From: Campylobacterales bacterium
GTDB lineage: Bacteria; Campylobacterota; Campylobacteria; Campylobacterales; Nitratiruptoraceae
NCBI GenBank assembly: GCA_027002625.1
Contig: JALWZJ010000149.1
Coordinates: forward strand, 1 to 41,802
Length of the DNA: 41,802 nt
Direction: 5' to 3'
Part shown: positions 3,941-6,045 of the stretch, one piece after another
Layout: each line of letters starts with the position of its first letter
How positions within the stretch are numbered: position 1 is the first letter of the stretch
Made by a program: the position numbers and the translations under genes
The notes under the pieces: model-generated
Told to the model about the DNA's origin: nothing
The model's database searches: none
The model's input: only the letters and a program-made list of their open reading frames with translations

Positions 3941-4504
3941 CTAAATCTTTTGTATCTTTTTCAAAGCCTCTTTGACCAGCCCTGCCGTATCCGTAGCCTC
4001 ACACTGGGCGAGTACCTTTTGGATCTGCTCTTTTTTAAATCCCAGGCTCTCCAGCGCTTTTGCAGCCTGCGACGCCGCCTCGTCCACCACCCCACTGGTC
4101 TGCAGCTCGAACTCCCCAAGCTCCACCAATATCCGCTGGGCGCTTTTTGGCCCGATACCAGGCACTTTTTTGAGTTTCGCCACACTCTTTTGGCGTACCG
4201 CCTCGACAAACTCAGATGGCTTGAAAGTGGAGCATATGGCCAAAGCCACCTTGGGTCCCACGCCGCTGAGGCGAATGAGGCGATCGAAAAGCCGCTTCTC
4301 TTCTTCGGTAGCGAAGCCATAGAGACTCTCGCTATCTTCACGGATGATATGGGTAGTATGCAAAAATATCTCACTTTTGTCCATGCAATCTAACTGAGCA
4401 CTGGTATTGAGAGATATGAAGACCTCGTAGACCACTCCATGTACTTCGATATGTACGGAAGTGGGCTCTTTTTTTAGGATACGTCCTCGCAGACCTACGA
4501 TCAA
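3941..4504 (-). CDS. ruvA: Holliday junction branch migration protein RuvA
   Basis: MI-x-LRG start, IREDSESLYGF, two HhH motifs (SGVGPK, PGIGPK), C-terminal ALESLGF. TTG start with AAGGAG SD. Confidence 0.96.
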   Translation of the reverse strand: MIVGLRGRILKKEPTSVHIEVHGVVYEVFISLNTSAQLDCMDKSEIFLHTTHIIREDSESLYGFATEEEKRLFDRLIRLSGVGPKVALAICSTFKPSEFVEAVRQKSVAKLKKVPGIGPKSAQRILVELGEFELQTSGVVDEAASQAAKALESLGFKKEQIQKVLAQCEATDTAGLVKEALKKIQKI

Positions 4505-4511
4505 TGGAGCT

Positions 4512-4799
4512 CCTTTATAAAGTCAAAGAAAAATGACAAATAGAGCGAAAACTTTGCAATTTTAACTTGAAAATTTTATGCTGGCCTTTGGCCAAAAAAG
4601 TGCGCCCAACCCGAAGGGCGCCCTACAGGCGTAGGCTATGCAAGTTTGCATAAACGCCTCGCCGTGCGGAGCTACGAAGGATAAGCAGTTATCCTTCGTA
4701 ACGCTCCTCCCGTTCGCACTTTTTAATAAAATTTTCAAGAGGTGCGCAAGCAAAAATTGCAACTCGTTTGAGCGAGATTTGATCATTTTTCTATAAAAA
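4512..4799. repeat. Nested multi-branch palindromic element (MITE/REP-like insertion or structured 5' leader)
   Basis: Nested inverted pairs read directly: 4528-4541/4777-4791 (one-nt indel), 4554-4563/4753-4762, 4566-4579/4726-4739 (14 bp perfect), 4595-4604/4715-4724. Inner hairpins at 4582-4594, 4627-4659 and 4668-4707 (12-bp perfect core). Function unknown. Confidence 0.8.
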
Positions 4800-4808
4800 T
4801 TTGCAGCG

Positions 4809-4814
4809 ATTGTA
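4809..4814 (-). promoter_or_regulatory. Candidate -10 box (TACAAT) for the ruvA-ddl operon
   Basis: TGGT-TACAAT on the minus strand immediately outside the palindromic element. Confidence 0.4.
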
Positions 4815-4832
4815 ACCAATCTCCTCTTAATG

Positions 4833-4838
4833 TATAAT
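4833..4838 (+). promoter_or_regulatory. -10 box (TATAAT) for the MFS gene, probably a leaderless transcript
   Basis: Perfect TATAAT with 7 nt between it and ATG 4846; no SD. Confidence 0.55.
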
Positions 4839-4845
4839 TACGCTA

Positions 4846-6045
4846 ATGTATGCCAAAAACAATCTAAAAAACGTACTCCACGGCTTTTTCTTGGCCGTGG
4901 CCCTCACCATCGCCGAGCCTTCGACCACGCTGCCGCTCATCATCCACCACTTTAGCCAAAACGTGGCGATCGTGGGAGTCTTTACCTCCTTGCTTCGGGG
5001 CGGAGCTATCTTGGTGCAGCTCTTTGCGGCCTTTTACGCCCAGAGTTTTCGCTACGTGATGCCCTATCTGCGCCTTGTCTTTTTGGCCAGATTTCTTAGC
5101 TGGCTGGGTATCGGGCTTGCCATCTACTTTTTTGGCTCCACGCACCCCACCCTCACCCTTTGGCTTATCGGTATGGGGCTCTTTTTTTTCAGCTTCAGTG
5201 CCGGATTTGGCAGTATCTACTTCAACGAGATTTTGGCCAAAGTCTTCAGTCACGAGCTTCGGGGCCGCTCCATGGCCAACCGCCAATTTTTTGCCGCCAT
5301 CGGCTCGATCCTAAGCGGTCTGGCGGCCGGCTGGATACTGCAGCATTTCGAGCCACCTCACAGCTACGCCTATCTTTTTATCGTCAGCGCCTTTTTTATG
5401 GGGCTTGGACTTTTGGCTTTTTCCACCATCGAGGAGCCGCCCAAAGAGAGTATCAGCCAAAAAGAAAAGAGCTTTTTCGAGTTTTTGCGCAACGCTTTTG
5501 CTCTGCTCAAAGAGGATAAACGACTCCAGATCCAGATCGTCACCGTACTACTCAGCTACTCCTTTTTATTTGGCTTCGCCTTTGTGATCTTGCAAGCCAA
5601 AGAGCATATCGAGCTCACCGGCTGGCTGGTGGGTGGATTTATCGTGGTACAAATGGGTGGAGCCCTGCTGGGCAACCTCATCTGGCGCCGCCTCTCTCCA
5701 CGATACAAGCAGATCATGATCGCCTCTTTTTTGCTCGCCATCCTCGCCTATGCCTCTTTGCTTCTATCTCATGGGAAGCTTAGCTACTTTTTTGCTTTTT
5801 TCGCTCTGGGGATGGCGATAGATGGCTTTCGGATATCTACGATGAATCTGCTGCTACTCATCGCCCCAGAGTCCAAACGCCCCGTCTACATCGCCTTGCA
5901 AAACAATCTCACCTCCATCGGCCTCTTTTTTGCCATTCCAGGTGGCCTCATCCTCAAAACCTTTGGCTACGAGGTGCTCTATAGCTTTACCATCGCCATG
6001 CTTGGGCTCGGCCTCTATTTCGCCACAAGGCTCAAAGTTGATTAA
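4846..6045 (+). CDS. MFS transporter (about 12 TM, substrate unknown)
   Basis: 399 aa with about 12 hydrophobic segments; MFS-type loops ELRGRSMA and APESKRPVYIAL. Confidence 0.85.
   Translation: MYAKNNLKNVLHGFFLAVALTIAEPSTTLPLIIHHFSQNVAIVGVFTSLLRGGAILVQLFAAFYAQSFRYVMPYLRLVFLARFLSWLGIGLAIYFFGSTHPTLTLWLIGMGLFFFSFSAGFGSIYFNEILAKVFSHELRGRSMANRQFFAAIGSILSGLAAGWILQHFEPPHSYAYLFIVSAFFMGLGLLAFSTIEEPPKESISQKEKSFFEFLRNAFALLKEDKRLQIQIVTVLLSYSFLFGFAFVILQAKEHIELTGWLVGGFIVVQMGGALLGNLIWRRLSPRYKQIMIASFLLAILAYASLLLSHGKLSYFFAFFALGMAIDGFRISTMNLLLLIAPESKRPVYIALQNNLTSIGLFFAIPGGLILKTFGYEVLYSFTIAMLGLGLYFATRLKVD

What the first reader, a model, noticed from the sequence alone, without database searches (positions are those of the whole stretch)
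4512..4799. ~290-bp nested cloverleaf palindrome wedged between the probable ruvA promoter and its ribosome-binding site
Seen in sequence: almost the whole ruvA/MFS intergenic region folds back on itself. Outer stems are 4528-4541/4777-4791, 4554-4563/4753-4762, a perfect 14-bp stem 4566-4579/4726-4739 and 4595-4604/4715-4724. They close a GC-rich multi-branch core with hairpins at about 4602-4621, 4627-4659 and 4668-4707 (TACGAAGGATAA-GCAG-TTATCCTTCGTA). TATAAA occurs in direct orientation at both edges (4516-4521, 4792-4797). Deleting the element and one copy leaves an ordinary compact promoter-leader on the minus strand: TACAAT-CGCTGCAAATTTT-TATAAAGGAG-CTCCA-TTG. It lacks the diagnostic motifs I know for tRNA, tmRNA, SRP or RNase P. 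Inference: an unnamed non-autonomous mobile palindrome (MITE/ERIC-like, TA-targeting) or a new structured RNA carried in the ruvA-ddl leader.
Basis: partly seen in the sequence, partly recalled or inferred. Interest (0 to 1): 0.75.

Follow-up and report, generated by a model that had tools for sequence, protein, structure and literature searches.

The report
Nested palindromic mobile DNA repeat
The 284-base palindrome in front of ruvA is one copy of a multi-copy, gene-less repeat of deep-sea vent bacteria, built from nested hairpin modules and absent at the same spot in close relatives; it likely spreads as folded single-stranded DNA with the help of an enzyme not yet identified, and is probably not a regulatory RNA.

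Summary
The fold is real (z -10.5). It is an insertion: all 14 same-genus relatives with a ruvA hit have an empty ruvA/MFS spacer, 284 bp shorter in the two closest. It is three nested modules: outer rod A, inner multibranch B, two-hairpin core C (4622-4711). This site occurs empty, A-only, A+B and A+B+C. The own genome holds five A/B-family copies; one relative holds 22. Pairing covaries strongly (49 of 67 pairs in A+B, 18 of 28 in C) while bulges, a tandem G·A loop and GNA triloops are kept, which suits DNA. Young copies elsewhere have 4-bp AT-rich target duplications; the TATAAA duplication is not supported here. In two complete genomes 27 of 29 copies are oriented by replichore, but draft genomes show no clear bias (18 of 31). 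No Rfam match; none of six transposase/RT families tracks it. Module C alone sits in CRISPR repeats, tRNA duplicates and Helicobacter mosaics. I found no description in ten paper searches; the scan noted analogous, sequence-unrelated cloverleaf repeats on other DNA. Verdict: new variant of non-autonomous palindromic mobile repeat, mobiliser unknown.

The parts
4517..4800 (+). Whole inserted element (A+B+C). Net 284 bp; exact ends uncertain by a few bases because they lie in A/T runs. '+' is the strand that carries the G·A loop and GNA triloops.
   Evidence: Empty sites in G004, G009 are 284 bp shorter; covariance model R2 spans 4519-4800.
4528..4563 (+). Module A, left arm (outer rod)
   Evidence: Pairs with 4753-4791; A-only forms exist at G000:C65, L096 and at this site in runs X5, X6, X7.
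4753..4791 (+). Module A, right arm, with one extrahelical base and a 3-nt bulge
   Evidence: Helices 1-3 of alignment A2: 25 of 31 pairs change on both sides; unpaired columns kept.
4543..4548 (+). GAGCGA, left half of a symmetric loop that would form two tandem sheared G·A pairs around a 2-bp duplex
   Evidence: Sequence; the four G·A/A·G oppositions are kept in 31, 29, 31 and 28 of 32 copies. Sheared geometry is inferred.
4770..4775 (+). GAGCGA, right half of the same loop
4566..4621 (+). Module B, left part: 14-bp stem arm, side hairpin, A-tract stem arm and the CCGAAGG mini-hairpin (4611-4617)
   Evidence: CCGAAGG is the commonest loop, in 16 of 32 copies exactly.
4712..4752 (+). Module B, right part with a side hairpin
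   Evidence: joints 4621 to 4711-4713 in all 8 runs laid.
4622..4711 (+). Module C: separately mobile two-hairpin core (4627-4659 and 4668-4707, GCAG loop), inserted in place of a TTG of module B
   Evidence: Same ruvA site without C in L279; C alone in other genomes; covariation.
4516..4521 (+). TATAAA at left edge; not shown to be a target duplication
4792..4797 (+). TATAAA at right edge; not shown to be a target duplication
4602..4621 (-). Terminator-like hairpin followed by a T run, in the direction of ruvA transcription; function untested
   Evidence: 1 found against 0.5 expected in shuffles, so not beyond chance.
3941..4504 (-). ruvA (TTG start, RBS-like GGAG at 4510-4513); host gene whose leader is interrupted
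4809..4838 (.). Overlapping divergent promoter-like sites: TACAAT on - (4809-4814, ruvA-ddl) and TATAAT on + (4833-4838, MFS); host sequence, kept in the two closest empty alleles
   Evidence: consensus matches only.
4846..6045 (+). MFS-like transporter gene, divergent neighbour

Best explanation
The element is a gene-less mobile DNA repeat that was inserted into the ruvA leader and later gained (or in sister alleles lost) inner modules, and it likely moves as a folded single DNA strand that an unidentified enzyme would recognise by shape rather than by end sequence. Shown: multi-copy, empty/filled sites, nesting of A, B and C, conserved pairing with conserved bulges, 4-bp AT-rich target duplications in young copies of two other lineages, replichore-linked orientation in complete genomes. 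Inferred: the '+' strand folds as DNA (tandem G·A loop, GNA triloops); insertion goes through a 4-nt staggered cut at or behind the replication fork, or copies with the folding strand on the lagging-strand template are purged; module C uses hairpin-bearing DNA (module B, CRISPR repeats, tRNA copies) as target. For ruvA-ddl it is most likely a tolerated passenger that lengthens the leader by 284 nt.
For: Empty site in 14 of 14 syntenic same-genus genomes; two other own-genome copies also empty in G004, G009, G007. Five A/B-family copies in G000; DNA matches in 17 of 61 genomes; 22 places in G016 and 7 in G018. Clean pair L075/G016: 182-bp insert with one AATT left; 21 of 28 parsed Nitrosophilus-type copies have a 4-bp direct repeat, including non-palindromic AATA and TATT; 4 of 9 G060-type copies have a 5-bp and one a 4-bp direct repeat (read by eye). 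Covariation: A2 95.7% paired, 49 of 67 pairs with both sides changed, 0 of 500 shuffles, slid controls 31-48%; A1 93.3%, 18 of 28, 0 of 500. G·A loop kept; G·T 65 against A·C 29 on +. GNA mini-hairpins are far more stable as DNA than RNA and CCGAAGG occurs in the ssiA priming signal (PMC13037366, passages). Orientation: 27 of 29 copies in G016/G018 put '+' on the leading-strand template, p 1.6e-6, with codon skew agreeing with the dnaA-based replichores in 18 of 20 test stretches; a second subfamily fits in G001 3 of 3, G011 5 of 6, G003 2 of 3, G005 0 of 1, G054 contig 1 4 of 4 (counted by hand). No tie to gene direction (18 copies between two genes on the opposite strand, 15 between two on the same strand).
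Against: No mobilising enzyme was found, so the pathway is unproven. The replichore bias is not general: 18 of 31 in draft genomes with an inferred leading strand (G012 5 of 10, G060 3 of 6, G020 7 of 9; p 0.47), 3 of 5 in the window's own genome, 0 of 1 in G040; shared ancestral insertions make the counts less than independent. The window copy and other Nitratiruptor copies show no clean target duplication. Covariation in palindromes can arise from arm-to-arm template switching without selection (established knowledge). Module C shows no strand preference by G·T/A·C (16 against 22). Several spacers are hit repeatedly in different genomes, which could mean ancestral insertion plus remodelling and so fewer real transposition events.
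Confidence: 0.55

Rival explanations
1. It is a classical MITE: a relic moved as duplex DNA by a visiting DDE transposase that makes 4-bp duplications; the pairing is a by-product of palindrome self-correction.
For: Short, gene-less, intergenic, multi-copy, inverted ends, 4-bp duplications. DDE IS families can also show replication-linked orientation (PMC3971601, abstract). G016, G020 and G060 do carry DDE_Tnp_1 genes. IS3/IS481, IS256, ISL3, IS1, IS6, IS66 and IS607 families were not searched.
Against: End sequences are not shared between lineages or even between copies of one genome, whereas the conserved parts lie 24-50 nt inside. No locus had the two arms around a gene: 65 distinct left+right pairs were all adjacent and the 4 unpaired halves were contig ends, a deletion or another element. 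No A/B similarity in 51 loci fetched around Y1, DDE_Tnp_1, IS110 and GIY-YIG hits. The complete genome G018 has 7 copies at 90-98% identity and no match to DDE_Tnp_1, IS1595, IS630, IS110, Y1 or RT.
Confidence: 0.2
2. No dedicated enzyme exists: host replication and repair copy stable hairpin DNA into breaks or fork gaps in A/T-rich spacers, and recombination between arms flips, trims and rewrites the copies.
For: No transposase family tracks it; ragged ends in Nitratiruptor copies; A-only and inverted versions at the same sites, tandem units that include pieces of neighbouring genes.
Against: Precise 4-bp duplications and fixed end distances in the Nitrosophilus subfamily, fixed position and orientation of C inside B in 9 of 9 long copies, and conserved unpaired bases suggest specific recognition.
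Confidence: 0.12
3. It spreads through an RNA copy that a reverse transcriptase inserts elsewhere (SINE- or retrozyme-like).
For: Module C is often at ends of highly transcribed units: tRNA duplicates, CRISPR arrays, gene 3' ends; rod-like fold.
Against: RT found in only 2 of 5 carrier genomes, not in G000, G012 or G018; orientation follows replication, not transcription; no ribozyme or other Rfam match.
Confidence: 0.08
4. It is a structured regulatory RNA selected in the ruvA-ddl leader (riboswitch, thermometer or attenuator).
For: It lies between the -10-like site and the RBS; strong covariation; a terminator-like hairpin faces ruvA.
Against: Absent from this leader in 14 of 14 relatives, four allelic states at this site, unrelated neighbours and both orientations elsewhere; ruvA mRNA would carry the strand with fewer G·U pairs.
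Confidence: 0.05

Closest known systems
Prokaryotic MITEs: ERIC/IRU, Correia (CREE/NEMIS), RUP, and bcr1 of the Bacillus cereus group (PMC3184786 and PMC10969869, passages)
   Same: Short, gene-less, intergenic, multi-copy, long fold-back, empty/filled sites, target duplication; bcr1 likewise keeps a cruciform by compensatory change.
   Different: No conserved terminal repeat sequence and no partner IS found; duplication is 4 bp (mostly AATT), not TA (ERIC) or 5 bp (bcr1); nested independent modules; no BLAST match in 20,395 E. coli records, plasmids or phages. A motif-level likeness to ERIC is recalled only and was not tested.
REP / BIME / REPIN elements with RAYT (TnpA-REP), and GTAG/CGTC repeats (PMC3733652, PMC6006769, passages)
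   Same: Single-strand hairpins with bulges, mosaics and tandem arrays of modules (Helicobacter loci), targets for other elements.
   Different: No constant GTAG or CGTC foot; 170-290 bp closed multibranch unit; target duplications; Y1 gene not found in any of the 8 genomes with several close copies.
IS200/IS605 non-autonomous derivatives (PATEs)
   Same: Structure-based recognition on single-stranded DNA and orientation tied to replication (PMC6006769 passages; PMC5027513 search listing only).
   Different: That family makes no target duplication (recalled) and needs TnpA, not found in the carriers; here the folding strand is on the leading-strand template.
Integron attC sites (PMC5371416, passages)
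   Same: [quoted passage not shown]
   Different: Solitary insertions without cassette ORFs or arrays, much longer than 57-141 bp, with target duplications; integron integrase not specifically tested.

Membership tests
MITE (IS-derived) | Short, non-coding, multi-copy, intergenic, with empty orthologous sites | tested here: met
MITE (IS-derived) | Target-site duplication | tested here: inconclusive
   Met in 21 of 28 Nitrosophilus-type copies; not shown for the window copy.
MITE (IS-derived) | Terminal inverted repeats conserved in sequence across the family | tested here: not met
   Ends are inverted but differ between lineages and copies; conserved only within the Nitrosophilus and G060 subfamilies.
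MITE (IS-derived) | Autonomous IS with matching ends | tested here: inconclusive
   None found among 65 pairs and 51 transposase-gene loci; several IS families not searched.
ERIC/IRU | About 127 bp with sequence likeness to ERIC | tested here: not met
   No blastn match in 20,395 E. coli records at E 0.01; lengths 95-290 bp.
ERIC/IRU | TA at both termini (TA duplication) | tested here: not met
   Clean pair shows AATT.
REP/REPIN-RAYT | Conserved GTAG-type or CGTC tetranucleotide at the hairpin foot | tested here: not met
   GTAG in module C varies freely; none in A/B.
REP/REPIN-RAYT | Resident Y1/RAYT gene flanked by the repeat | tested here: not met
   PF01797 in 25 of 61 genomes but not in G000, G002, G010, G012, G016, G018, G020, G060; no module hits in 20 Y1 loci.
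attC site / integron cassette | Fold with extrahelical bases and unpaired spacer, strand-selective | tested here: met
   (architecture only, not the attC consensus).
attC site / integron cassette | Array of ORF+site cassettes; insertion without target duplication | tested here: not met
   Solitary insertions between housekeeping genes with 4-bp duplications.
attC site / integron cassette | Linked IntI integrase | not tested
   Only the general Phage_integrase family was searched; it is in 22 of 22 genomes.
Known structured RNA (Rfam 15) | Match to a covariance model | tested here: not met
Cis-regulatory leader RNA | Fixed strand and conserved gene context | tested here: not met
Cis-regulatory leader RNA | Transcription and effect on expression | not testable with these tools
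   No RNA holder was listed; that is no evidence either way.

The most novel reading that the evidence does not exclude
Campylobacterota carry a transposase-free system of nested single-stranded DNA elements, defined by fold and not by end sequence, which a conserved host enzyme or an unrecognised mobile enzyme inserts at replication forks with a 4-nt staggered cut, and whose small modules home to hairpin targets such as CRISPR repeats, tRNA copies and each other. It would be a new route of DNA mobility and a model for the long-unexplained spread of ERIC-like repeats.
Probability: 0.2. Interest if true: 0.82.

Novelty: new variant of a known kind. Interest (0 to 1): 0.52.

Why it matters
How gene-less palindromic repeats without a partner transposase spread is an open question. 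This family gives testable handles: exact filled/empty pairs, young expansions (97-99% identity in G060), a complete genome with copies but none of six usual mobilising enzymes, a strand- and replichore-specific signal, and cultured carrier genera. It also rewrites leaders of core genes (ruvA-ddl here) and the ends of CRISPR arrays in abundant vent primary producers. If only an ordinary MITE, it is still an undescribed repeat family worth annotating.

Tried and rejected
Rfam at gathering and E-value thresholds: nothing. blastn against plasmids, E. coli genomes and phages: no match. Viral contig scans: 3 hits to the C motif were coding DNA of unrelated prophages; 13 hits to the A motif gave no module match beyond one 11.7-bit piece; 0 hits for a second C motif. 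Mobiliser searches without a tracking family: Y1 (46), DDE_Tnp_1 (73), IS110 (74), GIY-YIG, mostly UvrC-length frames (75), RT (77), IS1595 (78), IS630 (116), tyrosine recombinases, in all genomes and so uninformative (79). Pfam scan of 77 of 114 ORFs near module C hits showed no recurring mobile-element gene. Two weak hits near IS110 copies were another module (E) outside the IS. No RNA holder listed. No joint giving a fully empty site in 8 runs laid; contigs drop variants, so this shows nothing. One search used a structure with one helix slid by a column and is replaced. Whole-flank GC skew in 3-kb loci was confounded by gene direction and not used. Outer arms copied from the target: not seen in the empty sites. 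Pseudoknot between the GTGC linker and the GCAG loop of C: considered, sterically implausible, not tested. Paper searches that found no description of this family: (two were for background); the library lacks most subscription papers, and supplements or figures of PMC11602168 (MITE lists) and PMC3733652 (Sulfurovum consensus) were not seen and might contain it.

Full report
Observation. The 288 nt fold at -112.2 kcal/mol, z -10.5 on + and z -7.9 on -, with 0 of 200 shuffles as good. The neighbours are ruvA and ddl on - and an MFS-like gene on +. Rfam has nothing for it. Holders of the locus are labelled hydrothermal vent metagenomes in 6 of 10 listed runs; RuvA proteins of a same-genus and a same-family genome are named Nitratiruptor and Nitrosophilus.

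It is an insertion. Of 21 ruvA loci fetched, 14 are same-genus relatives; all 14 have the MFS gene next to ruvA and none has the element; the 6 other-genus loci have other neighbours and no element. In the two closest (about 90% RuvA identity) the spacer is 284 bp shorter and reads as a T5 run at the site, with no TATAAA. The same site holds A+B without the core in a metagenome contig (L279) and an A-only form with other letters at both TATAAA positions in runs X5, X6, X7 (joint 4547 to 4753, side 63-72 letters). So the site has four states: empty, A, A+B, A+B+C.

It is a family. The own genome has five A/B copies: C149 and C136 (A+B+C), C56 and C8 (A+B), C65 (A only), and a partial C at C151; the C136 and C56 sites are empty in G004, G009 and G007. 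DNA search matched 17 of 61 genomes, two of them only weakly; G016 has 22 places and G018 7. A covariance model of A+B found a second subfamily, 10 of 40 genomes scored including the own. In 65 distinct copies the left and right arms were always adjacent, never around a gene. Median identity among copies runs from 75% (G012) to 98% (G060), so there are old and recent waves. Several spacers carry different copies, or opposite orientations, in different genomes.

Structure is conserved, sequence is not. On 32 non-redundant A+B copies (32 of 35 selected), 95.7% of cells pair and 49 of 67 pairs change on both sides; 0 of 500 shuffles reach this and slid controls pair 31-48%. On 37 C copies (37 of 42 listed) the figures are 93.3% and 18 of 28. 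The shuffle control ignores relatedness, and palindromes can self-correct, so covariation alone does not prove selection; but unpaired features are kept too: the facing GAGCGA hexamers keep their four G·A oppositions in 28-31 of 32 copies, the extra base in the outer stem stays, and C-GNA-G loops recur. G·T outnumbers A·C 65 to 29 on + in A+B, but not in C (16 to 22). GNA mini-hairpins closed by a sheared G-A pair are much more stable as DNA than as RNA, and CCGAAGG occurs in a single-strand priming signal (PMC13037366, passages). I infer that the + strand folds as DNA.

Ends and target. One clean filled/empty pair (L075 against G016, 94-97% flanks) gives a 182-bp insert and one AATT left; a second pair is not clean. 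Of 28 parsed Nitrosophilus-type copies (2 more not parsed, three pairs are the same insertion in two genomes), 21 have a 4-bp direct repeat: 16 AATT, AATA once, TATT twice, 2 off by one base. G060 copies have a different, longer outer shell and 4-5-bp direct repeats in 5 of 9 (by eye). Nitratiruptor copies have ragged ends without a clear duplication. For the window copy TATA on both sides would fit a 4-bp rule, but the nearest empty alleles lack it, a sister allele differs, and a shared 6-mer has a 14% chance level: unresolved, and not TA-targeting.

Orientation follows replication in closed genomes. With dnaA as origin, 20 of 22 copies in G016 and 7 of 7 in G018 have + on the leading-strand template (p 1.6e-6; 5e-4 against a 65% null); codon skew agrees with those replichores in 8 of 10 and 10 of 10 test stretches. 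The second subfamily fits in G001 3 of 3, G011 5 of 6, G003 2 of 3, G005 0 of 1 (9 of 11 after removing two shared insertions, p 0.065) and G054 contig 1 4 of 4. Against: with the leading strand inferred from codon skew in draft genomes only 18 of 31 fit (G012 5 of 10, G010 1 of 3, G060 3 of 6, G020 7 of 9) and 3 of 5 in the own genome; the window copy fits. Gene direction does not explain orientation. The same polarity is reported for attC bottom strands in 25 of 30 sedentary integrons, where it limits excision (PMC5371416, passages); some IS families are also biased (PMC3971601, abstract).

Module C is a second element. In 9 of 9 long copies it sits at the same place and orientation, just after the CCGAAGG hairpin of B. 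Alone it was found in 21 of 151 genomes of the class and in 19 loci of a genome-wide motif scan, 16 of them in one Helicobacter species, within mosaics of other hairpin modules. It interrupts repeats of CRISPR-like arrays in G003, G005 (cas1 adjacent) and G034, lies in partial duplicates next to tRNA-Ala or tRNA-Asp in G003, G005, G034, G087, G024, and inside another module, E.

Mobiliser. Y1/RAYT is missing from all 8 genomes with several close copies. The complete genome G018 has no match to DDE_Tnp_1, IS110, RT, IS1595 or IS630 and only a UvrC-length GIY-YIG frame. No A/B likeness lay in 51 loci around such genes and no mobile gene recurred beside C. The enzyme may have been lost, belong to a family not searched, or be a host protein.

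Mechanism and effect. Best reading (0.55): a non-autonomous DNA element recognised as a folded single strand, inserted by a staggered cut in A/T-rich spacers in a replication-linked way, then nested by further modules; that it is a mobile non-autonomous repeat at all I put near 0.9. In the window it lies between the -10-like site and the RBS of ruvA and is likely a tolerated passenger; a terminator-like hairpin and outward-facing TAAAAT hexamers (4573-4578 on -, 4727-4732 on +) could alter expression but are untested.

Comparison and novelty. It works like ERIC/bcr1-type MITEs and REP/REPIN or attC-type single-strand hairpins (PMC3184786, PMC10969869, PMC3733652, PMC6006769, PMC5371416; passages) but fails a defining test for each. 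Eight paper searches aimed at it found no description; PMC11602168 passages mention only a 1.1% MITE rate in Helicobacter, supplements unseen. The scan has no sequence look-alike and nothing else in this genome, but five notes on analogous cloverleaf repeats in other DNA, which lowers how singular the phenomenon is and which I did not check. Verdict: new variant of a known kind, interest 0.52.

Noticed in passing
L065, L067, L070 (G018); L024, L143; L071/L202:1620-1900; L292:3077-3210; G000:C151:19400-19650: A further palindromic module (E, about 150 bp, same loop vocabulary) that hosts or abuts module C; in L292 it is inserted inside the last repeat of a CRISPR array.
   Followed up: partly
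L292:1246-2735 (G016): An IS110-family element inserted within a CRISPR array; a 99.9% identical copy lies elsewhere (L295).
   Followed up: partly
L128-L145 (Helicobacter sp. 11S02596-1): Intergenic regions are BIME-like mosaics of several recurring hairpin modules besides C; at least 16 loci.
   Followed up: no
L133:2200-2750: Module C repeated three or more times with a constant tail and different spacers, an array-like layout in a Campylobacteraceae MAG.
   Followed up: no
L247, L248, L245, L219, L222: Tandem units of 77-170 nt made of a C-like hairpin plus sequence resembling the 3' end of the adjacent gene.
   Followed up: no
L084/L093/L059, L052/L054, L004/L022, L088/L094, L085/L091/L097: The same intergenic spacers are occupied in different genomes by different copies, sometimes inverted: hot spots or repeated remodelling.
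   Followed up: partly
L300:1500-1750 (G017, two copies): A 98-aa GIY-YIG reading frame that appears to lie inside the 5' part of the 23S rRNA gene (rRNA identity read by eye), like an intervening sequence with an endonuclease.
   Followed up: no
L299:1500-1900 (G003): A small GIY-YIG gene followed by CGTC-type palindromic repeats.
   Followed up: no
L052, L018 and window 4800-4814: Three own-genome insertions begin 6-10 nt downstream of a -10-like hexamer, near the likely transcription start; not tested statistically.
   Followed up: no
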